From: a virus
Taxonomy: Duplodnaviria > Caudoviricetes
DNA: 64,000 nt
Virus record (IMG/VR): IMGVR_UViG_3300047319_000334
Span: 326 to 64,325 of that record
Reading direction: 5' to 3' (one strand)
Part shown: positions 821 to 64,000 of the stretch, piece by piece
How the letters are laid out: every line of letters starts with the position of its first letter
Numbering within the stretch: position 1 is the first letter of the stretch
The notes under the pieces: generated by a model
The model's database searches: none
What the model saw: the letters and a program-made list of their open reading frames with translations, nothing else
Told to the model about the DNA's origin: nothing
Translations under genes and position numbers: made by a program

Positions 821-990
821 GCTGCTTCCTTTCGATCAAAGCGCCGCTGAATGATCTCGCGATGCCATTTATTGAGTTCAGTAGATAGCGAATCGAGCGT
901 GTGGAAGACCGGCTCCGCATTGCCGCAGCACTCGCCATAGGCTTGACCGCAGCATTCCTGCCCGACTGGAATGGCGATCTCCTGCAACAC
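1..990 (+). repeat. Diverged direct repeat, copy A (partner 63011-64000)
   Basis: Colinear without indels at offset 63010; about 68 mismatches by manual count, mostly synonymous. Confidence 0.97.
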
Positions 991-12973: not shown

Positions 12974-13645
12974 ATGAAAAAGTCGTGGCCACCAGAGGAT
13001 CTCGCATTGCTCGAGCGCGAATATCCGAATACGCATACGCCGACATTGGCAAGGCAAATGGCTCGCACGCCCTCTTCCGTCTATCAAAAGGCTCTCGGCA
13101 TGGGGCTGAAGAAGTCAGCAGAATACCTTGCTAGTCCGCAGGCCGGTCGAACGGACGGCAAGCGTGGCGGCCAATCGCGGTTCAAGCCGGGACACAAGAC
13201 GTGGAATGCCGGCATGAAGGGTTGGTCGCCAGCAGGAACGGAAGCGACCCGTTTCAAGAAAGGCGAAATGCATGGAGCCGCCCAGCACAACTATGTGCCT
13301 ATCGGCTCCTACCGCGTCAGCAAGGATGGCTACCTCGAGCAAAAGACAAATGACGATCACCCTACGCCGGCACGTCGGTGGGTTGGCGTTCATCGTCTTG
13401 TATGGGAAGCCGCAAACGGCCCCATCCCGCGCGGACATGTCGTGTGTTTCATGCCAGGCAGAAAGACCAGCGACGTCGACAAGATCACGCTCGACGCACT
13501 TGAGATGGTCAGCCGTGCCGAACTGGCCCGACGTAACCACCCCGTTTCGCGGTCACCCGAGCTGGCGAAACTTGTTCAGTTGAAGGGCGCTATCACGCGC
13601 CAGATTAACCGGATCGCCCGCGAGGCACAGGAGAAGCAATCATGA
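12974..13645 (+). CDS. HNH-signature protein (HNH_3 type)
   Basis: HRLVWEAANGPIPRGHVV motif; FKPGHKTWN repeat. Confidence 0.85.
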   Translation: MKKSWPPEDLALLEREYPNTHTPTLARQMARTPSSVYQKALGMGLKKSAEYLASPQAGRTDGKRGGQSRFKPGHKTWNAGMKGWSPAGTEATRFKKGEMHGAAQHNYVPIGSYRVSKDGYLEQKTNDDHPTPARRWVGVHRLVWEAANGPIPRGHVVCFMPGRKTSDVDKITLDALEMVSRAELARRNHPVSRSPELAKLVQLKGAITRQINRIAREAQEKQS

Positions 13646-17627: not shown

Positions 17628-18116
17628 GTGAAAGAGATACCTTTGAGTCGTGGTCTGGTTGCCTTGGTTGATGACGAAGACTACGCGGTTCTGTCGCGGC
17701 ATAAGTGGTCTGCATGCCCGAGGGGGTACGCAAGGCGTCGGCTGAAGAACAACGAGAATCCGACCGGAAAATTCCAGTTGGTCTACATGCACCGGGTGCT
17801 CATGCAGTTGACGGCTTTCGACGGCAAGCAGGTTGATCACATTGACGGCAACAAGGCCAACAATCGAAGATCGAATTTGCGGCTGTGTAACCCGTCACAG
17901 AATCACGCCAATGTCGGCCCAAACAAAAGGAACAAGTCGGGCTACAAGGGCGTTTGCTTCCACAAGAGATTCAACAAGTGGACGGCGAGTATCGCGGCTG
18001 ACGGGAAGATCAAACATCTGGGATATTTCAGCACCCCGGAGGCTGCAAATACCGCGTACTGCGATGCTGCGAAAATTTATCAAGGCGAATTTGCTCACTC
18101 GGGAGTGACGGCATGA
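17628..18116 (+). CDS. HNH-AP2 homing endonuclease
   Basis: MHR..VDHIDGNKANNRRSNLR HNH; SGYKGV..W.A.I..LGYF AP2 domain. Confidence 0.93.
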   Translation: MKEIPLSRGLVALVDDEDYAVLSRHKWSACPRGYARRRLKNNENPTGKFQLVYMHRVLMQLTAFDGKQVDHIDGNKANNRRSNLRLCNPSQNHANVGPNKRNKSGYKGVCFHKRFNKWTASIAADGKIKHLGYFSTPEAANTAYCDAAKIYQGEFAHSGVTA

Positions 18117-41629: not shown

Positions 41630-41687
41630 TCACTCACCATCACAAGATAAGCCGCCTCTGTGCGGCTTTTTGCTTCGTGGAGCCCAA

Positions 41688-42683
41688 ATGTCCAATGATT
41701 TTATCCCGTTCGCAGTAGGCGGCAGCGCGAACGTTACGCCCCAAGCTACATACGCTGCGAACACAACGCTGACGCAGAACGGGTTTGTGGCTGGCATCGC
41801 CAAATCCACCGATTTGAACAAGGTATGGCGCCAATCGTCGATCATGTCGGCAGTTCTGGCTCAGTTCATCACCAACACGACCGGCCAGAACTCGGTAGAT
41901 GACGGCACGACGGCGACGCTGTTGTCCAACCTGATTGCTGCCGTCAGCGCTCAATCTGAATCGGTTATTGGTGGCGTCCGCAACCTCGCAATGAGCGTCG
42001 TGACGGCGTCGGCAACGGCAACGATGACGGCAGATGAAATCATCGTCGGTTCTGCGCTTGGAGGCCTGAAATACACTCTCGCCAGCTTCAGCAAGACCAT
42101 CAATCTCGCGACGACTGGTGCGGGCGGGATGGACACTGGTACGGCGCCGGTGTCCGGCTATGTCGCGCTGTACGCGATCTACAACCCGACGACTGGTGTT
42201 AGCGCACTGCTGGCAACGAATACGACGAGCGCGGTTGCGCCGAATGTGTACGGCGGCGCAAATATGCCTAGCGGGTACACGGCGTCGGGGCTTGTGGCTG
42301 TCGTCCCCACCAATGCGAGTAGCCAATTCCCGATTTGCTATGTGCGTGATCGGCACGTCATCATTGTGCGGACAGTTGCTTATACTGCGACTACGAACCA
42401 TTCCACGATGACTGCAGTCTCGCTGTCTGCTGTGGTCCCCAAAAATGCTGTACGCGTCTGGGGTGATTCATTCTACAGTAGCTCGGTTTCGGCTGACAGC
42501 CTCTTATGGAGCGTTGGGGCTGACGCCTCGCAAGCCGGCACGACGTTCTTCCGTGCTGGCGCTAGCAACGGGCAATACCCGTATGTATCGGATATGCCGA
42601 CCATGCAGACCGTGTATATCACGAACACTGGTGTGACCGGCACCATCACCTTTAACGTGAACGTCACTGCATACGACTTCTAA
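41688..42683 (+). CDS. Tail fibre protein
   Basis: NDFIPFA..NKVWRQSS N-terminal baseplate anchor; Thr/Ser/Ala-rich beta body. Confidence 0.85.
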   Translation: MSNDFIPFAVGGSANVTPQATYAANTTLTQNGFVAGIAKSTDLNKVWRQSSIMSAVLAQFITNTTGQNSVDDGTTATLLSNLIAAVSAQSESVIGGVRNLAMSVVTASATATMTADEIIVGSALGGLKYTLASFSKTINLATTGAGGMDTGTAPVSGYVALYAIYNPTTGVSALLATNTTSAVAPNVYGGANMPSGYTASGLVAVVPTNASSQFPICYVRDRHVIIVRTVAYTATTNHSTMTAVSLSAVVPKNAVRVWGDSFYSSSVSADSLLWSVGADASQAGTTFFRAGASNGQYPYVSDMPTMQTVYITNTGVTGTITFNVNVTAYDF

Positions 42684-42944: not shown

Positions 42945-44213
42945 TCAAAGTTTGAATTGGACTTTGACTGAGCCCGACTTCTTGTCGTTGGCAGTTTGAA
43001 ACGCAAGCGGAGCATCGGCGATCCGAAATTCATGCGTGATCAATTTTCGGAGTCGCTCGCCATTGAGTGCTAGATTCTCGATTGCCACCTCAAAATCGTG
43101 CTTGCCATCCAGGTATCCATAGCAAGTCGAGTAGAGGAACGTCAGCTCCTTCATCAGCGCCGGGTAAGCCTCGACCACTTTGATACCGGGGCCAGTCGCA
43201 CCCACTATCCCCACCCGACCGCGGGGCGCAAGAAATCTCGTCGCCTGATCGATGGTCGCTTGGCCGCCTCCAACGGCCTCGATCACGAAGTCTGCGCCAT
43301 GGGGGGCGACTTCTCTGATCCGATTGATCGCTGACCCGATATCGTCCGGCAGTATGTCCGTCGCTCCGATTGCCAGTGCGAGCTCGCCCTGAAAAGCATG
43401 TCGTGCAACAACGAAGACATTTGTGGCCCCGGCGTGTAGTGCAGCGGCGACTGCGCAGAGTCCGATAGTTCCGGCGCCGATAACGACCCCAGTCATTCCC
43501 GGGCGAACACCAGCCAATCGCACTCCATGAGTGCTTACAGCGAGCGGTTCGACGAAGGCCCCGAGGGCATCATCAATCGAGTCGGGTAGGTCAAACGTCG
43601 CCGAGTCTTTAACGCGCACGTATTCAGCGAAGCCACCAGATCGGAACGGAAGCGCTTTATTGACGCAATGATAGGGATGACCGCTTGTGCAGAACTGGCA
43701 CTTCCCGCACATGGCATTCAGGAACAGATCGGCAGTAACACGCTTGCCAATGCGCTCGCGCGAGACGCCTTCGCCGACCTCGACGATTGTCCCGGCAAAT
43801 TCATGGCCATGCGGAAGGTCGTGGCTGTTTGGATCCTGCCTATATGCGCGCAGGTCGGTACCGCAGATTCCGGAAGCGCCAACCTTTACGATGACGGTCC
43901 CAGGCAGAGATTCAGGCCTGTTTATCTTGGTGACCTCCAGTTGGCCGATCCCGCGATGGAGCGCGGCCTGCATCGGAGCGCCATTATCTTCGGTGGACGT
44001 AGGTGCGGATGCGGGGGCCAAATCGGAGAGTGACAGACCAGCTTCAACCAGTCGAGGAAGTCGATTCGTCCGGAATTCGTCCGAACCCATAAGACCCTTG
44101 ACGAGATCCAGCGTGTGGTAGACGTTCTCCATCCAGTACTCAGCGGCACCGGGCTCGGCCGGGCGCCCGAGCAGCAGCAAATATGCGGATTCGACGTCCT
44201 GTTTGGTAACCAT
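42945..44213 (-). CDS. Zn-dependent MDR-family dehydrogenase with DUF4214-like N-terminal domain
   Basis: GICGTD, GHEFAG, CxxCxxC..C, GAGTIG; N-terminal AYxxLLGRxAEP..YW..SDEF. Confidence 0.9.
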   Translation of the reverse strand: MVTKQDVESAYLLLLGRPAEPGAAEYWMENVYHTLDLVKGLMGSDEFRTNRLPRLVEAGLSLSDLAPASAPTSTEDNGAPMQAALHRGIGQLEVTKINRPESLPGTVIVKVGASGICGTDLRAYRQDPNSHDLPHGHEFAGTIVEVGEGVSRERIGKRVTADLFLNAMCGKCQFCTSGHPYHCVNKALPFRSGGFAEYVRVKDSATFDLPDSIDDALGAFVEPLAVSTHGVRLAGVRPGMTGVVIGAGTIGLCAVAAALHAGATNVFVVARHAFQGELALAIGATDILPDDIGSAINRIREVAPHGADFVIEAVGGGQATIDQATRFLAPRGRVGIVGATGPGIKVVEAYPALMKELTFLYSTCYGYLDGKHDFEVAIENLALNGERLRKLITHEFRIADAPLAFQTANDKKSGSVKVQFKL

Positions 44214-44293
44214 CAGAATTTCCTTGTCTCTCGGTATTTAAGCGTGCCGGCGAGTATATATGATGGCCCGGCGTTTTCTGCCCGGAGGCATGT

Positions 44294-45349
44294 TCACCAC
44301 CGATAACCCAAAGTCACCATGTGTGCCGCCCTGAAACCGAGCGGCACATTGCTGTTGCTGACGTTCTTCGACGGCGTGCTGATGTAGGTGTAGCGCACGG
44401 TCACCTTCTTGTAGGCGACTGATGCGCCGGCCACCCATGTGAGTTGTGGCTTGGGGTCATGTGCGAGTGTTTCGACGGAGCCGCGCGGCCCCCAAGGACT
44501 CGTTTCAGACATCACGGTCATCGTCGACGTCCATGTGCCTTTGAAGACTGCCGGGCCGCCCTCGACGCTAAACCGCCAGTTCCCGACCTCGTAGTAAGGC
44601 TCGATGGTTAGCGCAATGGCCTGGAGCGAACCACCCGTGTCGAAGTAACGCATCGGGCCGCATGTGCCGTTGCATGCCTGCTTCTGCGGGTTGTAACCGC
44701 CGACACCATCAGTGTAGTCCGAGGCATCTGGCACGGCATCGCCCTGGATCTTGGCTGTGCCGAAGTACATGTACGAGAGGTTCAAATCGACGCCGGGCAG
44801 CCACGAGCCGCGAGTATATGGGAGCGCGGTCAAGCCAACGCCGATGCGGCCCGCAGGAACACGGAGCTTGAGGTGATGGCTGAAGCCCTGCTGGTAGTAC
44901 ATTCCATCGCCCATCGCTGTAAAGTTCGTGGCGCCAAGGCCCGCTTCAGCATGGAAAAACGACTCAGCGTGCGCGCCGGCCGCGGCGCAGCCGAGCGTCA
45001 TAGCTACGGCTGCGGCTCTCCATCCTGCTCCGGGGCAGGATCGGCGTTGGGGTCTAGCACCGCTCCGGCCTCTCGCATCGCGTCGTACACGGTCTCGATG
45101 TCTTTCTGCTTGAGCACGCGGTGCGCCATAGCCCAGAACAGCATGTGCATGCTCACCACACGAGGCTTCTTCCCGCCCGTGTATTTCCGATACTGTTTGT
45201 CGCTGGACACGCCCAGCAGCTTTGCCATCTGGGCACCGGTAAAGCCGAGCACCTTCTGAAGGCGCGCCAAGTCTTCGGTCGTGAGAGCCTTGTAGAGCAT
45301 GAAGGGTTCGTCCAATTGTGCGCGCGGCGGCACGAAAAGAGTATTTCAT
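44294..45349 (-). CDS. Outer-membrane beta-barrel protein; start uncertain (45349 or 45001)
   Basis: AHA signal cleavage site, alternating beta strands, C-terminal LGYRW; strong RBS only at 45349. Confidence 0.7.
   Translation of the reverse strand: MKYSFRAAARTIGRTLHALQGSHDRRLGAPSEGARLYRCPDGKAAGRVQRQTVSEIHGREEASCGEHAHAVLGYGAPRAQAERHRDRVRRDARGRSGARPQRRSCPGAGWRAAAVAMTLGCAAAGAHAESFFHAEAGLGATNFTAMGDGMYYQQGFSHHLKLRVPAGRIGVGLTALPYTRGSWLPGVDLNLSYMYFGTAKIQGDAVPDASDYTDGVGGYNPQKQACNGTCGPMRYFDTGGSLQAIALTIEPYYEVGNWRFSVEGGPAVFKGTWTSTMTVMSETSPWGPRGSVETLAHDPKPQLTWVAGASVAYKKVTVRYTYISTPSKNVSNSNVPLGFRAAHMVTLGYRW
45004..45300 (-). CDS. XRE-like HTH regulator nested in the OM-protein frame
   Basis: LGFTGAQMAKLLGVSS..YRKYTGG helix-turn-helix. 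Confidence 0.75.
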   Translation of the reverse strand: MLYKALTTEDLARLQKVLGFTGAQMAKLLGVSSDKQYRKYTGGKKPRVVSMHMLFWAMAHRVLKQKDIETVYDAMREAGAVLDPNADPAPEQDGEPQP

Positions 45350-45515
45350 GATTCTTCCTTTCGGAGATGACGGGTTGCCGGAAAGGCCTCCCTGTGTTGA
45401 AAATATTAGCCCCATTGGGGTTGAAAAAGCAAGGGGAATTTCATGTGTTGTCTAGGCCGCATACTGTTACATACTCATGCTTGACGGTAGTAATGCGGCG
45501 CACTAGCATTCCTAC

Positions 45516-45794
45516 ATGATCCAAACCTTCCGATGCCCCGACACCGCCGCGCTATTTGCCGGACAGCGCGTCGCCAGGTTCGTGAACTTTGAAAAAGTCG
45601 CGATGCGGAAGCTTGCCATGTTGCACCGGGCACAAACGCTGCATGATCTGCGCGTTCCGCCCAATAACCAACTGGAAGCGCTCAAGCGCGACCGTGCTGG
45701 GCAACATAGCATCCGGATCAACGATCAATATCGAGTGTGCTTCCGGTTCGATCAAGGAAGTGCATTCGACGTTGAGATCGTCGACTATCACTAG
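45516..45794 (+). CDS. higB: HigB toxin (RelE/ParE family)
   Basis: DLRVPPNNQLEAL..RAGQHSIRINDQYRVCF..EIVDYH. Confidence 0.95.
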   Translation: MIQTFRCPDTAALFAGQRVARFVNFEKVAMRKLAMLHRAQTLHDLRVPPNNQLEALKRDRAGQHSIRINDQYRVCFRFDQGSAFDVEIVDYH

Positions 45795-45806
45795 GAGGTG
45801 CCGCTT

Positions 45807-46109
45807 ATGCCACGTGAAATCCCCTACCCCCATCCGGGGGAAATCCTGTCGGAGGAATTCTTGACTCCGATGGGTATCAGTGCGTACCGGCTCGCCAAAG
45901 ATATTCGTGTTGACCAAACGCGCATCAGTGACATCATCGCTGGCCATCGCGCCATCACCGTGGATACTGGTTTGCGCTTGTCCCGCTACTTCGGAACCAA
46001 TGACGAATTCTGGACGGGCCTGCAACTCGACTACGAAACAGCCGTGCACAAGGCCGAGATAGAGAGGCAACTTGAAGCGATACCGCGCTTCGAACCGGAA
46101 GCCGCCTGA
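45807..46109 (+). CDS. higA: HigA antitoxin
   Basis: HPGEILSEEFL, ITVDTGLRLSRYFG..FWTGLQ. Confidence 0.95.
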   Translation: MPREIPYPHPGEILSEEFLTPMGISAYRLAKDIRVDQTRISDIIAGHRAITVDTGLRLSRYFGTNDEFWTGLQLDYETAVHKAEIERQLEAIPRFEPEAA

Positions 46110-52166: not shown

Positions 52167-52832
52167 ATGTGCACTAACTACCGACCACTTGAGGCCGATC
52201 TGTTTGAGGCGTTCACCGATTTCCCTGTTCCGCGGTTCGACTATCCGCCGGAGACCTACAAGGATTATGTCGCTCCGATTTTGAGGCGAGTAGACGGCGC
52301 GTCATCCACCGACCCCGACACGTTCGGCCTTGTGCCGTACAAGCACATTCCCGCTCACGTAAAGAAGTTCGACACGATGAACGCGCGGGCGGAGACGATC
52401 GGCGAGCGTCGCAGCTTCAGCGGTGCGTGGAAGAAGTTGCAACTGTGCCTGATCCCCTGCGCGAACTTCTACGAGCCGAACTGGGAGACGGGTAAAGCCG
52501 TGAGATGGCAGATTGGAATGCCTGACCGCAAGCCGTTCGCGATTGCCGGCCTATGGCGCTCATGGGAAGAGCCTGAAGGCGTAGCGCTGTCATTCACCAT
52601 GTTGACCGTCAACGCAGACGAGCACCCATTGATGCGCCGGTTTCACCGACCTGGTGCTGAGAAGCGATCTGTCGTAATCCTGCGGCCAGAGGAATATCAC
52701 GATTGGTTCGGCGCGCGATCGACCGACGAGGCGCGGTCGTTCCTCAATCTATTTCCGGCTGAGGAGATGGCTGCTGAGCCGAAGCCGTTGCCTCCGCGGA
52801 AGCCTCAGGCGGAAGCTGATCTGTTCGAGTGA
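52167..52832 (+). CDS. SOS response-associated peptidase (SRAP/YedK family)
   Basis: N-terminal MC, NARAET, FYEP, IAGLW, H..KRSVVIL. Confidence 0.93.
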   Translation: MCTNYRPLEADLFEAFTDFPVPRFDYPPETYKDYVAPILRRVDGASSTDPDTFGLVPYKHIPAHVKKFDTMNARAETIGERRSFSGAWKKLQLCLIPCANFYEPNWETGKAVRWQIGMPDRKPFAIAGLWRSWEEPEGVALSFTMLTVNADEHPLMRRFHRPGAEKRSVVILRPEEYHDWFGARSTDEARSFLNLFPAEEMAAEPKPLPPRKPQAEADLFE

Positions 52833-53340: not shown

Positions 53341-54618
53341 ATGAAATTCTCCGCGAAAGCCGCCAAGGAGCTAGCGCCAGGGGCGCACATCATTCTCCCT
53401 GATTTTCCCGGCTTACGGATCGAGGCATCCACCAGTCGGAGAAGCTGGATATACAGATTCAAATCCCCAGTGGATAGCCGGATGCGCCAGCTAAAACTTG
53501 GTGAGTGGCCGGCCATGTCGTATAGCGCCGCGATCTCGGCATGGGAGGATGTGCGCTCAAGACGAGATGCCGGCGAAGACCCGGTGCTCTCGAAAAAATC
53601 AGCCAAGACGGTGAGCAAAAAATCGTCGGTGGAATCATACACGGTGCGGCAATTGTGCGAGGACTTCATCGCCGGTCACATTGAGCGCCACAGAACGGCT
53701 CTCGGTGCCCGTCAGACTAGAACAAGGATGCTCGCGAAAATTGCTCCGATTGCTGACCTGTCGGCCGCCAGCATCACGCGCGGGCAGGCATTCGCCCTCC
53801 TAGAGGGAGAGAGCGGATCACCAAGAAACGCAGCGATCCTCCGAGCCGAACTCGGAGCAGCCTGGGATCACGCGCTCGACGCAGACAGAATCCCCGACAA
53901 CACGCCGAACTGGTGGCGCCAAGTGATGCGCGGCAAGCTCAGAAGCGCTGGGCGCAGCATTGACGGGGAAAAGCAACTGATCAAGCGCGTGCTGACGGCC
54001 GACGAACTGAAAGTGTTGATTCCGTGGCTGCCAACATATCCTTCGACGACTTCCGATGTGCTTACGCTCTACCTATGGACGTGTCTGCGCGGAGGCGAGT
54101 TGGTCATGATGGAGGGGCGCGAAGTGTCGGAGGAGCAGGACGGACTGTGGTGGACGATTCCCAAGGCGAAAACGAAAAACAAAAACCGCAAGGAGGCAAC
54201 CGATCACCGCGTCCCGCTCGTGGGTCGCGCAGAAAAGATCGTGCGTGACAGGATCGAGGAGTTCGGCGACTCCTGGCTATTCCCGACCAATACGAATAGC
54301 CACATCCCGCAACGGAGTATCAATAAGATTGTGTGGGCCCATCATTCCTATTCCCAAAAGCCGAATGCGATTCCGCGCGCTGTCTGCCCGGTTGGACGTT
54401 GGGCGCCGCACGACCTACGCAGAACTTCCAGAACGCTTTTGGCGGCACTTGGGTGCCCCCGCGAGGTAGCCGAATCGCTCTTGGGGCACATCCTGCCGGG
54501 CGTGGAAGGGATATACAACAGACACAAGTACGATGCCGAAAAGCGCGAATGGCTTATGCGGCTTTCTGACCGACTTGAGACACTAGCCCGAGCGAAGGAC
54601 CAGGCGGAAGAAGATTAG
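53341..54618 (+). CDS. int: Tyrosine integrase with arm-binding N-terminal domain
   Basis: TCLRGGE (R), KTKN (K), HDLRRT, LGH, YNRH. Confidence 0.95.
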   Translation: MKFSAKAAKELAPGAHIILPDFPGLRIEASTSRRSWIYRFKSPVDSRMRQLKLGEWPAMSYSAAISAWEDVRSRRDAGEDPVLSKKSAKTVSKKSSVESYTVRQLCEDFIAGHIERHRTALGARQTRTRMLAKIAPIADLSAASITRGQAFALLEGESGSPRNAAILRAELGAAWDHALDADRIPDNTPNWWRQVMRGKLRSAGRSIDGEKQLIKRVLTADELKVLIPWLPTYPSTTSDVLTLYLWTCLRGGELVMMEGREVSEEQDGLWWTIPKAKTKNKNRKEATDHRVPLVGRAEKIVRDRIEEFGDSWLFPTNTNSHIPQRSINKIVWAHHSYSQKPNAIPRAVCPVGRWAPHDLRRTSRTLLAALGCPREVAESLLGHILPGVEGIYNRHKYDAEKREWLMRLSDRLETLARAKDQAEED

Positions 54619-58380: not shown

Positions 58381-58878
58381 TCATATCGTCCTCGATTGCT
58401 TCATGAATACGAGCCAATGCGTCATTCCGCTGCGGCCACTGACCTGGCCGAACAGAGGGCTCGCGGGCGTGAGCGCAAGCACTTCGTCGAGCTTGACCTG
58501 TGTCTCATTCCATTTGAAAACGAGAACGCCGTGGTCTTCCAGAACCCGGAAGCACTCGGCAAAGCCTTTGCGGATGTCCTCGCGCCAGTCGGTGCCAAGC
58601 TTTCCGTACTTCGCTGCAAGCCAGCTACGCGGGCCCGCGCGCACGAGATGCGGCGGATCGAACGACACGAGCTTGAAAGACCCATCCGGGTACGGCAGCG
58701 CGCGGAAGTCCATCAACACGTCGGGCTCGATGAGCAGCGTCCGCGTTCCGTCTTCGCGGTGCGATCGGTCAGTCACGGTGATCGTCTCGTGACGCTGATC
58801 GCCAAATACAACGTTCGGGTGCTGCCGGTCAAACCAGAACATTCGACTGCCGCAGCACGGGTCCAAAATCAACTTCAT
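58381..58878 (-). CDS. SAM-dependent methyltransferase (probable DNA amino-MTase)
   Basis: ILDPCCGSRMFW motif I and FDPPH motif IV. Confidence 0.88.
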   Translation of the reverse strand: MKLILDPCCGSRMFWFDRQHPNVVFGDQRHETITVTDRSHREDGTRTLLIEPDVLMDFRALPYPDGSFKLVSFDPPHLVRAGPRSWLAAKYGKLGTDWREDIRKGFAECFRVLEDHGVLVFKWNETQVKLDEVLALTPASPLFGQVSGRSGMTHWLVFMKQSRTI

Positions 58879-59336
58879 ATCGTCCTCACTTGTTCGATTG
58901 CTTCGCCAAACAGGTCGCCAACAGCAAGCCGGGAGCGCCGCGTCTGGCGCGCTGTCTCGGCATGGTGCTCAGCGTCATAGGCAAGGTGGCAGCGCTGACA
59001 TAGCGCCTTCAGGTTGTCGTCGTCGCAGTGCTCGGGAACGTGATCCAGATGGGCTATCGTCAGCACGACACGCGTCCACTTATTGCCGCAGTATTCCGAA
59101 GCCTTGCAGCGGCCAAGCAACCGCCCATCGTCGGCTGCATAAACCTCGCCGTCGCCTTCGAAACGCTGGAACGTGCCCGCGTCTTTGTCGATGCCGCGAA
59201 CGATCGTGTCGCCGTTCGCGACACGGCATTGCTCGCAGCAGTCACCAGCCCGCTTGAGAATCCGGGCGCGAATCGCTTTCCAGTTCGACGGGTAGCGGGC
59301 CTTGTTTTCCGGTTTGATTGGCATGGGGGGCATCAC
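58875..59336 (-). CDS. HNH-like nuclease
   Basis: CEQC..LTIAHLDH..NLKALCQRCH. Confidence 0.8.
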   Translation of the reverse strand: MMPPMPIKPENKARYPSNWKAIRARILKRAGDCCEQCRVANGDTIVRGIDKDAGTFQRFEGDGEVYAADDGRLLGRCKASEYCGNKWTRVVLTIAHLDHVPEHCDDDNLKALCQRCHLAYDAEHHAETARQTRRSRLAVGDLFGEAIEQVRTI

Positions 59337-59373
59337 TCATTGTTCGATTGCTTCGCGCGCTGCGCGGATGGGG

Positions 59374-60132
59374 TTAGGCGGATACTCGCTTGAACTCGAC
59401 GACCCAGACCCACGGGTCGGCGTCCCATGATTCGGCGCCGTTGATCGATTCCCACAGGCAGCGAAACGAGCTGCGCGGCGAATACGTGCCATCCACGCCG
59501 CTGCGGCCGTATGTGCTCCAGAAGCCGGCAGGCGTCTTGCCGATGCCTTCCGCAATGGCGTCTTGCTCGCTGATGTCCTGCAACCGCTCGACGCGCACGC
59601 CAGTGACTTCGAGCGTGATGCGCGACGCCCAGCGCGGCATGTGGATTGAGGGGCATGCCTTGGCGCCATAGCTCAACAGCGCGGATGAGCGGGGGCAGCC
59701 GGCGACGTTGTAGCTGGCACCGGGTGCGCGCGTTTCCTCGACCCAGTAATCTCCGATCGTCGGCGTGGTCGAGACGTCGTGGCGAAACAGGCCCGGTTTT
59801 TCCAGCACGCCGCGAAGCTTGCTGATTACGCCGCTCTCGCGCACCCACAGGCGGTCGCCGGGTTGCCCATGCGGGCATTCGAAGCCATAGCCGTCTTTCA
59901 TGATGTGACGACCGTCGTATTCGCCAGGCTGCTCGAATTGCAGGTATGCACGATCACCGCGGCTGGACATGTGCTTGTCGCGTGCCGGCCAGTAGACCTT
60001 CGGAAGATAGCCGTCTTGAATTACAGCGGGCGGCTGACGTTTCATGACGCGGCGCGTCTGCGTCTTGCTGCCGTCGAGCAGAGCGCGCACCATCGGGCCG
60101 CTGAAGAGGATCGGACGTTCTTTGATGGTCAT
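59374..60132 (-). CDS. ASCH-like phage protein
   Basis: ERPILF..KTQTRR, GDRLWVRE, PSIHMPRWASRI, PWVWVVEF. Confidence 0.8.
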   Translation of the reverse strand: MTIKERPILFSGPMVRALLDGSKTQTRRVMKRQPPAVIQDGYLPKVYWPARDKHMSSRGDRAYLQFEQPGEYDGRHIMKDGYGFECPHGQPGDRLWVRESGVISKLRGVLEKPGLFRHDVSTTPTIGDYWVEETRAPGASYNVAGCPRSSALLSYGAKACPSIHMPRWASRITLEVTGVRVERLQDISEQDAIAEGIGKTPAGFWSTYGRSGVDGTYSPRSSFRCLWESINGAESWDADPWVWVVEFKRVSA

Positions 60133-60280
60133 TTGCTGCCCCGATATGTTTTGGTCAAAGCCTGGTTGACGGCGTGGCCGCGGCGTCGCACTGCGTTCGC
60201 TAGCGTCGCGCGGTCGTGGTGGCTGCTTGGCGCTTGACCCAGCAGGCCGAAATAGCTGTTCGAGACAGGCCGAAAATCTC
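60129..60280 (-). pseudogene. C-terminal remnant of a DGR reverse transcriptase
   Basis: SNSYFGLLGQAPSSHHDR..LA resembles the thumb-end SYxGxL motif of DGR RTs; lies where the RT should end, coupled to the next gene. Confidence 0.65.
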
Positions 60281-61151
60281 GGATTACGCGACGTGCTTCC
60301 AGATTTCCCGCTTCACGATGCGCTGAACTGTCTTGACCGACACGCTCAGTTCCCGTGCCAGAGCGCTCAGGCCATGGTCTGGGTCGCGGGGCACGTGACG
60401 CCGACGAATCTCCGCAACCTGCGCCTCGGTGAGTTTGTTGCTGTGGTGCTTTGTCCCAACCACCTTGGTTCCATGCTCGGCCTTGTCGGCTTCGTTCTCC
60501 AGCGGCGTTCCATAAGCCAGATTGCCCAAACTCGGATCGCTGTTCTTGCCGTCCAGATGCCGAATCACAAGACCGCGAGGACGTGGACCGAGAAAGGCCG
60601 CAGCGACCAACTTGTGCACAGCGACTTTCTTGGCCCTCCCATCCACCCAGAAACTCACGCGCGGATAGCCGTCGCCATCCGGCGTGGCCTTTCTGATCCG
60701 CGCGCCGCGCCTCACTCGCCCCAAACTGCTGACCTCGTATCCGACGAACCCCACTACCGGCAACCATTCTTCTGATTCCATGTGCATCTCCTTGACCTCC
60801 ACGAAGCGGGCGATGTGCGGCGTTCTTCCACCCGTTGGCCTGCTTCCCGATGCTGGTCGTCTGCTCGACGGACCCGGCGTACGCCTTACGCGAGATAAGG
60901 CGCTTGTCCATACCAAGGCGCAAGAGCAGTTCGATCACCTGAAGGCGTTCGAGCAACTCGGTCAGGTGCGACGCCTTGTCGACTGCCACGTTCGCGCGAA
61001 ACACCAGAACCATGATCTCGATGCATTCCGTGCTGATCTTCTCGCCGATGGAGCGTTTGAAGTCGCGCGGCATGTTCTTGACCATGTCGGTGACGCTATC
61101 GAGCAGCGCATAGGCCGCTCGATAAATCGGAAGTTGGGTGTGCAGGGCCAC
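60129..61151 (-). CDS. avd: Avd (DGR accessory four-helix bundle, first ~120 aa); stop lost, reads through to the RT remnant
   Basis: LPIYRAAY.L..MPRDFK..G..I..AN..LLLRL..D..LIS..Y..IGKQANGW. Confidence 0.85.
   Translation of the reverse strand: MALHTQLPIYRAAYALLDSVTDMVKNMPRDFKRSIGEKISTECIEIMVLVFRANVAVDKASHLTELLERLQVIELLLRLGMDKRLISRKAYAGSVEQTTSIGKQANGWKNAAHRPLRGGQGDAHGIRRMVAGSGVRRIRGQQFGASEARRADQKGHAGWRRLSAREFLGGWEGQESRCAQVGRCGLSRSTSSRSCDSASGRQEQRSEFGQSGLWNAAGERSRQGRAWNQGGWDKAPQQQTHRGAGCGDSSASRAPRPRPWPERSGTGTERVGQDSSAHREAGNLEARRVIRDFRPVSNSYFGLLGQAPSSHHDRATLANAVRRRGHAVNQALTKTYRGSK
60284..60787 (-). CDS. NUMOD4-HNH homing endonuclease with C-terminal HTH
   Basis: EEWLPVVGF..YEVSSLGRVR (NUMOD4), VHKLVAAAF, RHLDG..NLAYGT..EN; AAGGAG RBS. 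Confidence 0.92.
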   Translation of the reverse strand: MHMESEEWLPVVGFVGYEVSSLGRVRRGARIRKATPDGDGYPRVSFWVDGRAKKVAVHKLVAAAFLGPRPRGLVIRHLDGKNSDPSLGNLAYGTPLENEADKAEHGTKVVGTKHHSNKLTEAQVAEIRRRHVPRDPDHGLSALARELSVSVKTVQRIVKREIWKHVA

Positions 61152-61165
61152 GATGGTTTAAATGA

Positions 61166-61630
61166 TCAAATTACTGAAGGGATAAATCTGCGGACGGCGC
61201 GGGCGCGGAACTCGTAGCTCTGGTGGTCGTAGTGCTGACTGCCGTCGTCGAAGTACTGACACCAGGCCCAGCCGGACTCCGATTCATGCGCCTCGGTCGA
61301 CCAGTACGCACGCTCTTCGAACTCGCCCTTCAGGTTCGCGAAGAGCAACGATTGCTCGCGACGGGTCGGGAGTTCGCCGCCTTGCTCGACTGCCCATTCC
61401 TTGGCCGCCGACCACGAGACATCGTCCACGTCGCCGGGCAGCAGGATCAGGTGATGCGACAGCACGCCGTCCTCGCCGAGCACGACACCTGCGTAGCGCT
61501 CACCCGGCGCGAGCGGAATCGTTGCCGCCGGAATGCGGAGTTCCGTTGCACGCGGCTGCTTCTTGAACTCCGCGATCAGTTCACTGATGCGGGACTGTTC
61601 GGCCTCGATGGCTTCAAGCGTGATGGTCAT
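61166..61630 (-). CDS. DGR target 2: DUF1566/CLec-fold protein with N-terminal coiled coil
   Basis: LPTRREQSLL, YWS, AW..F..G.Q..RARAVRR. Confidence 0.88.
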   Translation of the reverse strand: MTITLEAIEAEQSRISELIAEFKKQPRATELRIPAATIPLAPGERYAGVVLGEDGVLSHHLILLPGDVDDVSWSAAKEWAVEQGGELPTRREQSLLFANLKGEFEERAYWSTEAHESESGWAWCQYFDDGSQHYDHQSYEFRARAVRRFIPSVI

Positions 61631-61933
61631 TGCGATGCTCCGTTGTAAATGGGCAAAGGGTTAAATGGACAATCTGCGGACGGCGCGGGCGCGGAACTCG
61701 CTGGTCTGGCGGTAGCAGTACTGACCGCCGCGGTCGAAGTCCTGATACCAGGCCCAGCCGGACTCCGATTCATGCGCCTCGGTCGACCAGTACGCACGCT
61801 CTTCGAACTCGCCCTTCAGGTTCGCGAAGAGCAACGATTGCTCGCGACGGGTCGGGAGTTCGCCGCCTTGCTCGACTGCCCATTCCTTGGCCGCCGACCA
61901 CGAGACATCGTCCACGTCGCCGGGCAGCAGGAT
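61185..61933 (-). repeat. 263-bp direct repeat (61185-61447 and 61671-61933) containing two variable regions
   Basis: Identical except 12 mismatches within 61215-61260 / 61701-61746. Confidence 0.95.
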
Positions 61934-62020
61934 GGTGTGCGTGACATCACCGGTTGCGTTTACGAAGCCGCCGAGATAGATTTCGCCTTCTGCGAGCGGG
62001 GGAAGCTGAACTTGTTGCAT
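61661..62020 (-). CDS. DGR target 1: DUF1566/CLec-fold protein
   Basis: Same domain as target 2; AGGA RBS. Confidence 0.88.
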   Translation of the reverse strand: MQQVQLPPLAEGEIYLGGFVNATGDVTHTILLPGDVDDVSWSAAKEWAVEQGGELPTRREQSLLFANLKGEFEERAYWSTEAHESESGWAWYQDFDRGGQYCYRQTSEFRARAVRRLSI

Positions 62021-62166
62021 GAGTTTTCCTGTGAAAAAGAGCCGCGCATACTGGCCGGCTAAGCGCACGCTTGCGGAGACCACCGCAAGGTTTAGGGGCG
62101 CGCCAACAGACTTACTCAGAGATTCACGCCGGAGGCTTCATCTGATGCTGGTGGACGCGTGAGGGT

Positions 62167-62934
62167 TTAGGCGGCCTCCTGACGAAGCACCTTTTCGTAC
62201 TGAGCGACCAGCATGGCGAATTCCCAGAGATCCTTTTCGAGCGCTTCGATGTAGTCCTCATCGCGCTTGAATTCCTGATACCAGAACTGCTTTCCGGCGG
62301 GCTCCAGCGCCGGGCAGTACAGGCAGTTATGCCACCACTTCCGGCCAGAGATCCACATGCCGCCCATGGACTGATCATGGACGTCAGTGAAATCGCCGTC
62401 GATGTAGATTGAGCGGAGGCGATCGGGAGCAACGAAACACTTGTACTCGCTGCCGCCGTCGTCATTGATCAATCCGTCAACACTGACGCCAAAGAGCCCA
62501 TCGTCCGTTTTCATGAACCCGCAGCGCTGCACGAACAAGCCTGTGCGAGCTTCGTGCTCCATGCGCGCGGACGGCTCCAGATCATGTCCGCGGCGCATCT
62601 GCCAAGTCTCGAACCCCTCGTCAAGCGGCTCTCCACTAATGCGCTCGACCGCAAGCCGGAAAGCGTAGTCCTTGGCTTTATCCGAGTAGTCGCCGACCTT
62701 CTCGCCGTTGAGGGCCCGGGTGATGATGTCGGACTTCGGCAGGGCCTTGTATCCGGCTGCCTCAGCAGCGGCCTTCTCGGGCGTGCCGGCCAGACGTAAA
62801 TTGACGAACTGCTGCTGACGGTCATCCAGGCATCCGACCTTGCTGCGAGCGGTCGCAAACATACTGGCAGTAATTACGCCCGCGCGCGCCCGATGCCATT
62901 CCGGTGAACCCTGTTCGCATTCGACAATAATCAT
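62167..62934 (-). CDS. YqaJ/lambda-type exonuclease
   Basis: QGSPEWHRARAGVITAS, GHDLEP, SVDGL, EYKC. Confidence 0.92.
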   Translation of the reverse strand: MIIVECEQGSPEWHRARAGVITASMFATARSKVGCLDDRQQQFVNLRLAGTPEKAAAEAAGYKALPKSDIITRALNGEKVGDYSDKAKDYAFRLAVERISGEPLDEGFETWQMRRGHDLEPSARMEHEARTGLFVQRCGFMKTDDGLFGVSVDGLINDDGGSEYKCFVAPDRLRSIYIDGDFTDVHDQSMGGMWISGRKWWHNCLYCPALEPAGKQFWYQEFKRDEDYIEALEKDLWEFAMLVAQYEKVLRQEAA

Positions 62935-63830
62935 TGCGGGCCTCCTTCGGCGGCAAGCTGACGTTGAAACTCCGCTTCCATTTCGGAGTCGTCTGCGCCA
63001 GGTTCACGTTGCGGCTCGGGCGCCTTCGCTGGGAGCGTTTTGCTCTTTGCAGCCATCGCCGCCTTGAACGCATCCGATGCAGGCGCATCCTTCGCTGCGT
63101 TTATTTCCTTGACAGCGCGCTTCCAGAGCGTGTCGAACTGATCTCTCATTGTTACTGCGTTGGCCTCGGCAACGAGCTTGATACCCAGTGCGCTCAATAC
63201 TGGCTCGCCCGGCTCATCGTCGTGCCGATACTCTTCCGGCAAGTCTTCGATGTCCTGGGTGAAAATGTCCGACGCTGCGGTGACGTTGAGCGTCATGGCG
63301 ATCTTGGCGCGCTTGCAGGCCATCTTGAGGATGGTGTTCGCCTGGTCGGCCGACTCGGTGCGAATCTGCTGCTTCTTCTCGACCTTGTTATTCCATTTAG
63401 CGAACTTCAGCCGGCGCAGGTTTTCCGGCGTGACCTCGAACTCTTCGGCGCAGATTGCACCGCGCCATTTGTATTTTTCCTCGTGGGATGAGCACTCGCC
63501 CATCCCCTCGCCCAGAACGACGCCAGTCACCTGATGGATGCCGATGCAACGCACGCGGAAGCGCGCCATGCCGTCGACAGTCAGGTCTTCGATCTCGTAC
63601 TTGTCGGCGACGCGGAACGTCACACACAATACTTCCGCGCCCGGCTTGTACAGCGACGGCTTCTTGGTGCCGGGAATCACGCCGTAGTGCGTCTCGCTCT
63701 TCATGATGGAGCGCATCACTTCCTGCACGAGATTCACCCGCTGGCGAATCTCCATCGCTGAAAACTGATGCACCTCACCTGCAACGATGCCGGCGCTCTC
63801 GCGCCGCGGCATTTCGATTACTTCGTTCAT
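62931..63830 (-). CDS. Putative single-strand annealing/recombination protein
   Basis: HYGVIPGTKKPSLYKPGAE, NTILKMACKRA; coupled to the exonuclease gene. Confidence 0.65.
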   Translation of the reverse strand: MNEVIEMPRRESAGIVAGEVHQFSAMEIRQRVNLVQEVMRSIMKSETHYGVIPGTKKPSLYKPGAEVLCVTFRVADKYEIEDLTVDGMARFRVRCIGIHQVTGVVLGEGMGECSSHEEKYKWRGAICAEEFEVTPENLRRLKFAKWNNKVEKKQQIRTESADQANTILKMACKRAKIAMTLNVTAASDIFTQDIEDLPEEYRHDDEPGEPVLSALGIKLVAEANAVTMRDQFDTLWKRAVKEINAAKDAPASDAFKAAMAAKSKTLPAKAPEPQREPGADDSEMEAEFQRQLAAEGGPQ

Positions 63831-64000
63831 GCTGCTTCCTTTCGGTCAATGCGCCGCTGGATAATCTCGTTGCGCCATTTATTGAGTTCAGTAGATAGCG
63901 AATCGAGCGTGTGGAAGACCGGCTCCGCATTGCCGCAGCACTCGCCATAGGCTTGACCGCAGCATTCCTGCCCGACTGGAATGGCGATCTCCTGCAACAC
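63011..64000 (+). repeat. Diverged direct repeat, copy B (partner 1-990)
   Basis: About 93% identical to 1-990. Confidence 0.97.

What the first reader, a model, noticed from the sequence alone, without database searches (positions are those of the whole stretch)
61166..62020. DGR targets are tiny early-operon proteins, not tail fibres
Seen: 119-aa and 154-aa proteins with no signal peptide, encoded just downstream of the exonuclease in the leftward early operon. They are far from the tail genes, and the tail fibre shows no matching variable region. Known: the model BPP-1 DGR diversifies a receptor-binding protein. Inference: these are hypervariable intracellular binders, for example anti-defence or host-takeover proteins. 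The coiled coil of target 2 could oligomerise them.
Basis: inference. Interest (0 to 1): 0.7.

Follow-up and report, generated by a model that had tools for sequence, protein, structure and literature searches.

The report
Frozen targets of a dead retroelement
Two tiny lectin-fold genes in a soil phage's early operon were once hypermutated by a diversity-generating retroelement, but a homing-endonuclease gene has replaced that element's engine, so their variable tips are now fixed.

Summary
The two genes exist as described: T1 (61661-62020, 119 aa) and T2 (61166-61630, 154 aa), minus strand, just downstream of a YqaJ-type exonuclease. They have no signal peptide and lie 18 kb from the tail genes. 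Each is essentially one C-type-lectin domain of the DUF1566/Lcl_C kind. Their last ~30 codons differ from each other, and from the template repeat (TR) of close relatives, only at TR adenines. That is the signature of a diversity-generating retroelement (DGR).

This phage has no working DGR. The whole 64-kb record holds no TR and no reverse transcriptase (RT). A NUMOD4-HNH endonuclease gene sits where TR and about 286 RT codons should be. A 45-codon RT stub remains, and avd has lost its stop codon.

The intact cassette T1-T2-avd-TR-RT is already annotated in Burkholderia phage Magia. It occurs in 60 of 68 informative betaproteobacterial prophage loci. It always lies among recombination and integrase genes, and it is combined with at least three unrelated virion modules. 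This favours a non-virion, intracellular binding role, but the anti-defence idea is untested.

Verdict: a degenerate variant of a known cassette; moderate interest.

The parts
61661..62020 (-). T1: 119-aa stand-alone C-type-lectin (DUF1566/Lcl_C-like) protein and former DGR target. It is a chimera: residues 1-35 are T1-type, and residues 36-92 are a copy of the T2 body.
   Evidence: ORF. Pfam Lcl_C E 4.1e-5, 24.3 bits, below the 34.9 cut-off. AF2 pLDDT 94.8. VIA-align Z 13.5 to the Lcl C-terminal domain 8q4e. Chimera: 35/35 identical to L006 T1 in residues 1-35, and 23-25/57 to relatives' T1 in residues 36-92, a stretch identical to window T2.
61672..61762 (-). VR1, the variable repeat at the 3' end of T1.
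   Evidence: Matches the TR of Magia at 79%. Over a 97-nt comparison with the TR of L004, 13 of 26 TR adenines and 4 of 71 other bases differ. All 4 non-A differences lie in the flanks outside the 91-nt core, as read from the printed alignment.
61166..61630 (-). T2: 154-aa protein with an N-terminal helix (residues 5-24), a beta region and a C-type-lectin domain; former DGR target.
   Evidence: ORF. Pfam Lcl_C E 2.7e-5. AF2 pLDDT 92.7. Foldseek best hit 8q4e, E 1.4e-4. 1236 homologous clusters, named 'DUF1566 domain-containing protein' where a name is given. Scaffold dN/dS 0.11-0.30.
61186..61276 (-). VR2, the variable repeat at the 3' end of T2.
   Evidence: Matches the TR of Magia at 82%. 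Against the TR of L004, 9 of 26 adenines and 5 of 71 other bases differ; all 5 non-A differences lie in the flanks.
60813..61151 (-). avd (accessory variability determinant). The four-helix-bundle domain is intact, but the stop codon is lost, so the frame runs on to 60129.
   Evidence: Pfam bAvd PF22296, E 3.9e-14, 53.5 bits against a cut-off of 40. In alignment A1 the TAA of Magia and E192a reads GGA in the window. The resulting ORF is 340 aa, 60129-61151.
60284..60787 (-). HNH homing-endonuclease gene (NUMOD4 + HNH_3 + HTH) occupying the place of the avd-TR spacer, the TR and about the first 286 codons of the RT.
   Evidence: Pfam NUMOD4 35.4 bits and HNH_3 33.7 bits, both above cut-off. phrog_59 HNH endonuclease, E 2.5e-38. 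PADLOC homing endonuclease, E 4.3e-13. Homology to Magia and E192a stops at about 60790 and resumes at about 60278. A 2252-nt contig of another metagenome spans 60142-61106.
60144..60278 (-). Stub of the DGR reverse transcriptase (last ~45 codons).
   Evidence: tblastn with the E192a RT: residues 287-331, 64% identity, E 2e-12 and 3.6e-13. DNA match to the 3' end of the Magia RT at 60139-60254, 70.7%.
62167..62934 (-). YqaJ-type exonuclease immediately upstream (context: early recombination genes).
   Evidence: Pfam YqaJ, E 3.7e-11, 43.9 bits.
59374..60132 (-). 252-aa protein of phrog_874 (unknown function). In several relatives this gene follows the RT, and it marks the downstream edge of the lost segment.
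   Evidence: phrog_874, E 6.9e-73. Homologues directly follow the RT or the RT stub in L003, L004, L006 and L091.

Best explanation
T1 and T2 are paralogous, cytoplasmic, stand-alone C-type-lectin-fold binding proteins. They belong to a conserved prophage cassette, T1-T2-avd-TR-RT, a DGR of the 'short DUF1566-only target' kind.

In relatives, the RT copies the TR with errors at adenines and writes the copy into the last ~90 nt of both genes. This rewrites about 10-12 surface codons.

In this phage an HNH homing-endonuclease gene has replaced the TR and about 286 codons of the RT, and avd has since lost its stop codon. The two VRs are therefore frozen records of past mutagenesis. T1's scaffold was also overwritten by T2's through gene conversion.

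Shown here: the anatomy, the loss of TR and RT, the adenine-only differences, the fold, the family-wide synteny, and purifying selection on the scaffold.

Inferred: the proteins act inside the cell rather than on the virion. They would be made with the early recombination and accessory genes, and would bind a variable host or rival-phage factor (counter-defence, takeover or exclusion). They stay useful as fixed alleles after the DGR dies.

My odds are about 0.9 for the anatomy and history, and about 0.55 for the non-virion intracellular role.
For: Loss of TR and RT:
- Only two VR copies exist in the whole record.
- No RVT_1 match at E<=1. Only a 45-aa RT stub remains.
- The breakpoints and the lost avd stop are seen in alignment A1.
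- The HNH arrangement is bridged by a contig from a second sample.

DGR signature:
- VR1 and VR2 differ from the TR of L004 at 13 and 9 of 26 adenines. They differ at 4 and 5 of 71 other bases, all in the flanks.
- In 25 relatives with a TR (53 pairs), 612 of 1466 TR adenines are changed against 144 of 3782 other bases.

Fold:
- AF2 pLDDT 92.7 and 94.8.
- Lcl C-terminal domain 8q4e: E 1.4e-4 and Z 13.5.

Non-virion reading:
- No signal peptide, membrane segment or lipobox in 57 of 57 sequences.
- None of 118 neighbouring ORFs in 11 prophages matched a head, tail or lysis PHROG; integrase was found in 7 of the 11 loci.
- Of 16 cassette-bearing phage genomes, 5 have the window's DUF3383 sheath and capsid, 6 have a Phage_sheath_1 sheath, and 5 have neither.
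- Only 7 longer homologues were found against 1236 of similar size. None of the five read is a tail-fibre fusion.

Retained function:
- Scaffold dN/dS is 0.11-0.30, including 0.11 between two RT-less phages.
- All 7 RT-less genome loci listed show an open target frame; in L107 only the last 71 codons are on the contig.
Against: - No expression, localisation or binding data exist for any member.
- The same fold forms tips of adhesive fibres and tail fibres elsewhere. Examples are Bdellovibrio Bd2740 (Z 12.9) and Mtd (Z 8.2), and a Peptidase_S74 tail-fibre-like protein. A virion role is therefore not excluded.
- Gene position alone does not fix the timing of expression. The simple scan found no promoter or terminator on the minus strand, which says little.
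- T1 and T2 gave no PADLOC hit. PADLOC holds defence families, not counter-defence families, so this is weak either way.
- The VRs could still be rewritten in trans by a related DGR in the same cell.
Confidence: 0.6

Rival explanations
1. T1 and T2 are virion-associated adhesins, that is, accessory receptor-binding proteins that dock on tail fibres or the baseplate. They would function like Mtd despite being encoded far from the tail genes, because the DGR cassette is a mobile module that landed in the early region.
For: The characterised phage DGR (BPP-1 Mtd) diversifies a receptor-binding protein (Wu 2018, PMC5758913, passages read). Viral DGR targets are mostly classed as tail proteins (Roux 2021, PMC8144416, passages read). 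The CTLD fold of T1 resembles fibre-tip and adhesin domains: Bd2740 Z 12.9, InvE Z 9.2, Mtd Z 8.2. T2's helix plus lectin domain loosely recalls the neck-plus-lectin-domain trimers of collectins, but TM-scores are low at 0.32-0.43.
Against: The cassette keeps its position among recombination and integrase genes in 11 of 11 sampled prophages. It occurs with at least three unrelated virion modules, while the N-terminus of T2 stays highly conserved: T4 and E6 are invariant, and I3, L5 and I8 are conserved in at least 90% of sequences. T1 is nothing but the lectin domain, so it has no attachment domain. No tail-fibre fusion was seen among the five longer forms read.
Confidence: 0.2
2. The VRs are not frozen. 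A related intact DGR in the same host cell (another prophage of this family) supplies RT, Avd and TR RNA in trans and still retrohomes into T1 and T2.
For: The 3' ends of VR1 and VR2 match relatives' TRs exactly. DGRs can act on non-adjacent and remote targets (Wu 2018, PMC5758913, passages read). One species genome, Paraburkholderia caffeinitolerans, carries two cassettes, L036 and L038. A metagenome that holds parts of this phage also holds a contig joint that fits avd followed by a TR-like copy, which would be an intact relative; this is weak.
Against: TRs of different cassettes differ at non-adenine positions, and such differences would be copied into the VRs. avd here has lost its stop codon, as expected for a cassette no longer under selection to work. 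No host genome is known for this record.
Confidence: 0.12
3. T1 and T2 are relics on their way to loss, with no remaining function in this phage. The cassette is simply decaying after the endonuclease invasion.
For: avd has already lost its stop codon. T1's body has been overwritten by T2's. One contig of another sample fits a variant with a single target gene; this is weak.
Against: Both frames are open. The T2 scaffold has dN/dS 0.11 between this phage and another RT-less phage, L003. All 7 RT-less genome loci listed show an open target frame (only the last 71 codons of it are on the contig in L107), and 8 of 68 informative loci lack a complete RT.
Confidence: 0.08

Closest known systems
DGR cassette of Burkholderia phage Magia (MT701587, genes 47-44) and of vB_E192a and vB_PL1
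   Same: Same gene order: a 120-aa target, a 154-aa target and avd, in the leftward early region near RecT/nuclease and integrase genes. The window matches at 76% DNA identity over 1.2 kb. T2 is 70-71% identical and Avd 84-86% identical. The Magia record annotates gene 47 as a 'potential DGR target'. The genome announcement names a potential DGR with short target frames (PMC7883833, passages read).
   Different: Magia and E192a keep the TR and a full RT. The window has an HNH gene in their place, only a 45-codon RT stub, and an avd without its stop codon. The window's T1 carries T2's scaffold.
DGR target category 'd' of Wu et al. 2018 (DUF1566/DUF823/Fib_succ_major, CLec2 VRs; type example Legionella LdtA)
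   Same: The variable region sits at the C-terminus of a DUF1566-type lectin fold. [quoted passage not shown]
   Different: According to that paper, LdtA is a surface lipoprotein. T1 and T2 have no signal peptide or lipobox and are phage early-region genes. I did not align these VRs to the CLec2 class.
BPP-1 Mtd, the model phage DGR target
   Same: Adenine-directed VR at the 3' end of a lectin-fold gene, followed by avd. The fold resembles 1yu0: Z 8.2, 110 residues aligned.
   Different: Mtd (376 residues in chain 1yu0_A) sits at the tips of the BPP-1 tail fibres (PMC5758913, passages read). T1 and T2 are 119 and 154 aa with no extra attachment domain, and are encoded 18 kb from the tail genes.
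Cytoplasmic DGR-diversified 'antigen sensors' of multicellular bacteria, and the DGR-immunity hypothesis
   Same: Precedent for intracellular lectin-fold DGR targets thought to act in biological conflict (Belalov 2023, PMC10053308, abstract and outline read; PMC10907252, only the start of the abstract seen in the listing).
   Different: Going only by the abstract lines seen, those are targets of DGRs in cellular hosts, described as putative conflict systems. T1 and T2 are phage-encoded and consist of the binding domain alone (T2 adds one helix).
Free-standing HNH homing endonuclease genes of phages
   Same: NUMOD4 + HNH_3 + HTH architecture. Presence/absence polymorphism occurs at one site among otherwise collinear relatives.
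   Different: Here the gene does not merely sit between genes. It replaces most of a retroelement (TR plus about 286 RT codons). Related or other HNH genes occupy the same place in L035, L048, L058 and L107. I did not search the literature for a homing endonuclease that replaces a DGR RT.

Membership tests
Functional diversity-generating retroelement | DGR-type reverse transcriptase gene | tested here: not met
   PF00078 found no match at E<=1 in the whole record. tblastn with a relative's RT finds only residues 287-331 at 60144-60278.
Functional diversity-generating retroelement | Template repeat cognate to the variable repeats | tested here: not met
   BLAST of the VR region against the whole record at E<=10 finds two places only, the two VRs. 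The repeat search of the window finds no third copy.
Functional diversity-generating retroelement | VR at the 3' end of the target ORF, differing from the TR only at TR adenines | tested here: met
   Tested against the TR of the closest relatives (L004-L006), since the window has none. Adenines changed: 13 of 26 (VR1) and 9 of 26 (VR2). Non-adenines changed: 4 and 5 of 71, all in the flanks outside the 91-nt core. Family-wide: 612/1466 against 144/3782.
Functional diversity-generating retroelement | Accessory gene avd | tested here: met
   bAvd PF22296, 53.5 bits against a cut-off of 40. However, its stop codon is lost and the frame runs on for about 225 further codons.
Functional diversity-generating retroelement | IMH and the downstream hairpin at the VR end | not tested
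   I only noted that the GC-rich 3' ends of VR1 and VR2 equal the TR ends of relatives. No fold or element search was run.
DUF1566 / Lcl_C lectin-fold domain | Pfam PF07603 match above the gathering score | tested here: inconclusive
   24.9 and 24.3 bits against a cut-off of 34.9. Homologues at 85-87% identity carry precomputed PF07603 and are named DUF1566 proteins.
DUF1566 / Lcl_C lectin-fold domain | Fold of the Lcl C-terminal domain / C-type lectin | tested here: met
   T2 model: Foldseek best hit 8q4e, E 1.4e-4. T1 model: Z 13.5, rmsd 3.7, 112 residues aligned to 8q4e, followed by many C-type-lectin-like domains at Z 9-11.
Mtd-like tail-fibre receptor-binding protein | Encoded with, or fused to, tail-fibre genes or domains | tested here: not met
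   The genes lie among early recombination genes, 18 kb from the tail module. The 119-aa T1 is one lectin domain only. None of the five longer homologues read is a tail-fibre fusion.
Mtd-like tail-fibre receptor-binding protein | Presence in virions and a role in adsorption | not testable with these tools
   This needs virion proteomics and adsorption assays.
HNH homing endonuclease (for 60284-60787) | HNH nuclease plus DNA-binding modules, and presence/absence at a fixed site among relatives | tested here: met
   NUMOD4, HNH_3 and a weak HTH_38 match. Relatives have TR and RT at this site. The HNH form is seen in contigs of two further samples. Cleavage specificity is not testable here.

The most novel reading that the evidence does not exclude
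A large family of temperate phages of Betaproteobacteria uses a DGR to keep a repertoire of minimal, cytoplasmic, antibody-like lectin-fold binders, not to retarget its tail. T1 and T2 would be expressed with the early genes to recognise fast-changing host defence or rival-phage proteins. In turn, HNH homing endonucleases repeatedly invade and delete the RT and TR of this cassette, so lineages alternate between 'diversifying' and 'frozen' states.
Probability: 0.3. Interest if true: 0.75.

Novelty: new variant of a known kind. Interest (0 to 1): 0.45.

Why it matters
Phage DGRs are usually explained by tropism switching of tail fibres. This cassette is found in 60 of 68 informative species genomes sampled across several families of Betaproteobacteria. 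It diversifies proteins that are too small to be fibres, lack export signals, sit among early genes, and travel with unrelated virion modules.

If these proteins act inside the cell, they would be a phage counterpart of the proposed DGR-based 'antigen sensors' of bacteria. They would also be a natural minimal scaffold for evolvable binders.

The window adds a natural loss-of-engine variant, with targets kept and RT replaced by a homing endonuclease. That makes a clean comparison possible between diversifying and frozen lineages.

Tried and rejected
- T2 homotrimer prediction (complex prediction, three copies with alignment A2): no verdict, score 0.22 against a mark of 0.42. This says nothing either way.
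- Search for RNA evidence: no RNA holder is listed. All 24 runs are DNA metagenomes kept as contigs, so nothing can be said about expression.
- Read laying: only fragmentary contigs were available. They cannot show VR heterogeneity within a population. The single-target variant in X3 and the TR-like joint in X2 rest on one contig each.
- Simple promoter/terminator scan of 58800-64000: no promoter-like site, and 4 terminator-like sites, all on the plus strand, against 5.3 expected. Uninformative.
- PADLOC scan of 16 early-operon proteins: nothing for T1 or T2. The only hits were homing endonuclease, HNH and methyltransferase.
- ESM Atlas: the nearest named clusters carry InvE_AD at score 0.90 with only 109 shared features. 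This is a weak lead, consistent with a lectin-like fold and no more.
- Tail-fibre VR: the T1 hit at 42507-42584 (E 0.25) was read and rejected as chance.
- Literature searches found only the Magia announcement for this cassette. In what those searches listed, and in the passages I read, I found nothing on the early-operon position or function of these small targets. Term searches of the vB_E192a paper (PMC12860723) found no mention of an RT or retroelement. Supplementary tables of Wu 2018 and Roux 2021 may list this cassette or its target cluster; I could not see them.
Full report
**What is at the coordinates**

On the minus strand the order is as follows:
- a 299-aa protein, 62931-63830 (phrog_10048, unknown function);
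- a YqaJ-domain exonuclease, 62167-62934;
- T1, 61661-62020, 119 aa from the ATG;
- T2, 61166-61630, 154 aa;
- an Avd-domain gene starting at 61151;
- an HNH endonuclease gene, 60284-60787;
- a 252-aa phrog_874 protein, 59374-60132;
- a further HNH gene and a DNA methyltransferase.

The integrase lies at 53341-54618, and the structural genes lie at about 22.5-43 kb.

Neither T1 nor T2 has a hydrophobic N-terminal stretch, a membrane segment or a lipobox. The same is true of the other 55 family members aligned. The maximum Kyte-Doolittle score is 1.55 over 10 residues in the first 35, and 1.22 over 19 residues.

The tail-fibre candidate 41670-42683 has no VR-like stretch.

**They carry the mark of a DGR**

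T1 and T2 share a 263-nt direct repeat at 95% identity. The first 187 nt are identical. All 12 differences fall in positions 188-233, at first or second positions of about ten codons.

Close relatives keep a template repeat. Over a 97-nt comparison with the TR of L004:
- VR1 differs at 13 of 26 adenines and 4 of 71 other bases.
- VR2 differs at 9 of 26 adenines and 5 of 71 other bases.
- In the printed alignment, every non-adenine difference lies in the two or four flanking bases outside the 91-nt core.

Across 25 relatives that keep a TR (53 TR-VR pairs), 612 of 1466 TR adenines are changed, against 144 of 3782 other bases. Part of the latter comes from local alignments that run past the repeat. 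Both genes are therefore genuine targets of adenine mutagenesis.

**This phage has no engine**

- BLAST of the VR region against the whole 64,325-bp record at E<=10 finds two places only.
- PF00078 finds nothing at E<=1, while the control search rings in 4 of 14 reference genomes.
- tblastn with the RT of phage vB_E192a against the whole window finds only residues 287-331, at 60144-60278 (64% identity, E 3.6e-13). All other hits have E>=0.54.

The record is rated 100% complete. Its ends overlap: window 1-990 matches 63011-64000 at 93.1%. A whole genome circle is therefore covered.

Alignment with Magia and E192a (A1; BLAST) shows the following:
- Homology runs through T1, T2 and avd and stops just after avd, at about 60790.
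- It resumes in the last ~45 codons of the RT.
- The roughly 1.2 kb in between (spacer, TR and about 286 RT codons) is replaced by about 0.5 kb that encodes a NUMOD4 + HNH_3 + HTH endonuclease.
- The TAA stop of avd in the relatives reads GGA here, so the Avd frame runs on to 60129 as a 340-aa ORF.

The arrangement is not an assembly artefact. A 2252-nt contig of another rhizosphere metagenome spans 60142-61106 with 17 differences. A 502-nt contig of a third sample is identical over 60282-60783.

**The cassette is known and widespread**

Burkholderia phage Magia carries T1 (gene 47, annotated 'lectin fold domain protein; potential DGR target'), T2 (gene 46), avd (gene 45) and the RT (gene 44) in the same order, near RecT, nuclease and integrase genes. 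Its genome announcement mentions a potential DGR with short target frames (PMC7883833, passages read). vB_E192a and vB_PL1 carry the cassette too.

Among 30 IMG/VR loci found with T2:
- 25 have T1, T2 (three of these carry a third target copy), avd, TR and a full RT;
- L003 has only an RT stub;
- L019 has an RT match covering only residues 2-169;
- L025 and L032 have no RT within 6 kb;
- L018 ends at the contig edge.

Among 73 loci from one genome per species:
- 60 have a full RT;
- 5 have only an RT stub (L035, L043, L048, L058, L084);
- 3 have none (L086, L099, L107);
- 5 stop at a contig end.

The record titles name genera such as Paraburkholderia, Burkholderia, Caballeronia, Cupriavidus, Pandoraea, Massilia, Janthinobacterium, Thauera and Sideroxydans. 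The family assignment of these genera is from my own knowledge.

Several IMG/VR proviruses probably come from the same isolates as the genome loci, because their identities are equal (for example L003 and L035). The two sets are therefore not independent.

The protein search gives 1236 clusters at E<=1e-3 among 1270 candidates of similar length. Where a name is given, it is 'DUF1566 domain-containing protein'.

Wu et al. 2018 already define DGR target category 'd' (DUF1566 type). They note that about half of its members are short and DUF1566-only (PMC5758913, passages read).

**Repeated loss of the RT**

In the RT-less loci the lost segment is filled in different ways:
- A 150-aa HNH gene follows T2 directly in L035/L003 and L048; avd is gone as well.
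- Other HNH genes of 155-156 aa fill the site in L058 and L107.
- L043 has an HNH-like gene plus a HAD-like gene (both called by eye from sequence motifs; no family search was run on them) between avd and the stub.
- L084 has a plain deletion that joins Avd residue 69 to RT residue 250.

Wherever a stub is left, it covers the last 45-82 RT codons. Together with the window, I read these as at least five separate events; that count is my inference. All 7 RT-less genome loci listed show an open target frame, although in L107 only the last 71 codons lie on the contig.

**What the proteins are**

- AlphaFold models are confident: T2 pLDDT 92.7, T1 pLDDT 94.8.
- T1 is a single C-type-lectin-like domain. 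Its best matches are the Lcl C-terminal domain 8q4e (Z 13.5, 112 residues) and Bdellovibrio Bd2740 (Z 12.9). Many animal C-type-lectin-like domains follow at Z 9-11, then InvE (9.2) and Mtd (8.2).
- T2 adds a helix (residues 5-24) and two hairpins in front of the same domain. Its best Foldseek hit is 8q4e, E 1.4e-4.
- Among viral models the nearest are small 'DUF1566 domain-containing' phage proteins of 115-185 aa, plus one Peptidase_S74 protein of 594 aa.
- Pfam Lcl_C matches stay below the gathering score.
- The non-VR scaffold of T2 evolves under purifying selection, with dN/dS 0.11-0.30. The value is 0.11 between the window and the RT-less L003.

**An oddity of this phage**

T1 residues 1-35 are identical to T1 of L006 (35 of 35). 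Residues 36-92 match relatives' T1 at only 23-25 of 57 positions, and over that stretch T1 is identical to the window's own T2 (alignments A2 and A3). T2's scaffold has overwritten T1's by gene conversion.

The two VRs nevertheless differ at 12 adenine sites. Either retrohoming went on after the conversion, or the conversion tract stopped at the VR border.

**Where the proteins act**

The evidence is indirect but consistent.
- In 11 prophages of 11 genera, I scanned 118 neighbouring ORFs within about 6.5 kb. None matched a head, connector, tail or lysis PHROG at E<=1e-5.
- The hits were Erf, RecT, RecE, SSB, Gam, NinB, ParB-like proteins, polymerase subunits, methyltransferases, repressors and, in 7 of the 11 loci, an integrase.
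- Of 16 cassette-bearing phage genomes, 5 share the window's DUF3383-type sheath and capsid, 6 have a Phage_sheath_1 sheath, and 5 have neither.
- The closest T2 and Avd relatives (L004, L006; T2 79-86% and Avd 96% identical) belong to the second group.
- The N-terminus of T2 is the best conserved part outside the lectin core. That is hard to reconcile with docking on such different virions.
- Only 7 longer homologues were found. The five I read are tandem T-T fusions or read-throughs into unrelated early-gene sequence, not fibre fusions.

I therefore favour a non-virion, cytoplasmic binder made with the early genes, at about 0.55. What it binds, and whether it serves counter-defence, takeover or exclusion, is inference.

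Intracellular lectin-fold DGR targets have been proposed for cellular DGRs. I read the abstract and outline of PMC10053308. For PMC10907252 I saw only the start of the abstract in the listing.

**Novelty and verdict**

The cassette and the class of short DUF1566 targets are known, so the window is not a new kind of system. Three things are new here:
- the degenerate state, in which an HNH homing-endonuclease gene has replaced TR and RT while the targets are kept;
- the evidence that this loss recurs;
- the family-wide observation that the cassette stays in the early region whatever the virion module.

The anti-defence idea remains open. Interest is moderate.

Noticed in passing
window 1-990 and 63011-64000: The two ends of the window are 93.1% identical over 990 nt (one search showed 91% over the first 300). 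The record therefore seems to be one genome circle of about 63 kb plus an overlap taken from a slightly different strain, or the junction of two tandem relatives.
   Followed up: partly
window 61447-61276 and 61933-61762 (T2 and T1 scaffolds): T1's lectin scaffold is a perfect copy of T2's (187 nt with no difference), unlike T1 in all relatives. This indicates recent gene conversion between the two targets, while the VRs still differ at 12 adenine sites.
   Followed up: yes
L035/L003, L048, L058, L107, L043, L084 (downstream of the targets): The DGR RT and TR have been lost repeatedly in this family: 8 of 68 informative species genomes lack a full RT. In 4 of these an HNH-like gene follows the targets directly, and L043 has a further HNH-like gene (called by eye). 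Where a stub survives, it covers the last 45-82 RT codons. This suggests homing endonucleases that target this retroelement.
   Followed up: partly
window 12974-13645, 17628-18116, 58875-59336, 60284-60787: The phage carries four HNH-type endonuclease genes. Three have HNH_3 Pfam matches. The fourth has ZorE-like HNH matches in PADLOC.
   Followed up: no
window 60129-61151: Because avd lost its stop codon, a 340-aa ORF runs through avd, the HNH gene (in another frame) and the RT stub. By its size it could be mistaken for a reverse transcriptase gene.
   Followed up: yes
window 42945-46109: Between the tail-fibre gene and the lysozyme gene lie minus-strand ORFs of 422 aa (by eye, resembling a zinc-type alcohol dehydrogenase) and 373 aa, plus a small plus-strand pair at 45516-45794 and 45798-46109 that looks like a HigB/HigA-type toxin-antitoxin pair. 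These names come from reading the sequences. Of these ORFs only the 373-aa one went into the Pfam scan, and it gave no family.
   Followed up: no
window 61106-62001, contigs of run X3: One high-depth contig pair in another rhizosphere metagenome fits a variant of this locus with the same HNH gene but a single target gene. The joints are 61106->61670, and 61274->62001 with 240 other letters in between. Each joint rests on one contig.
   Followed up: no
window 52167-52832 and 58381-58878: An SRAP-domain peptidase gene lies next to the integrase, as in Magia. A small type II-like DNA methyltransferase (PADLOC MTase_II, E 3.6e-81) lies in the early operon.
   Followed up: no
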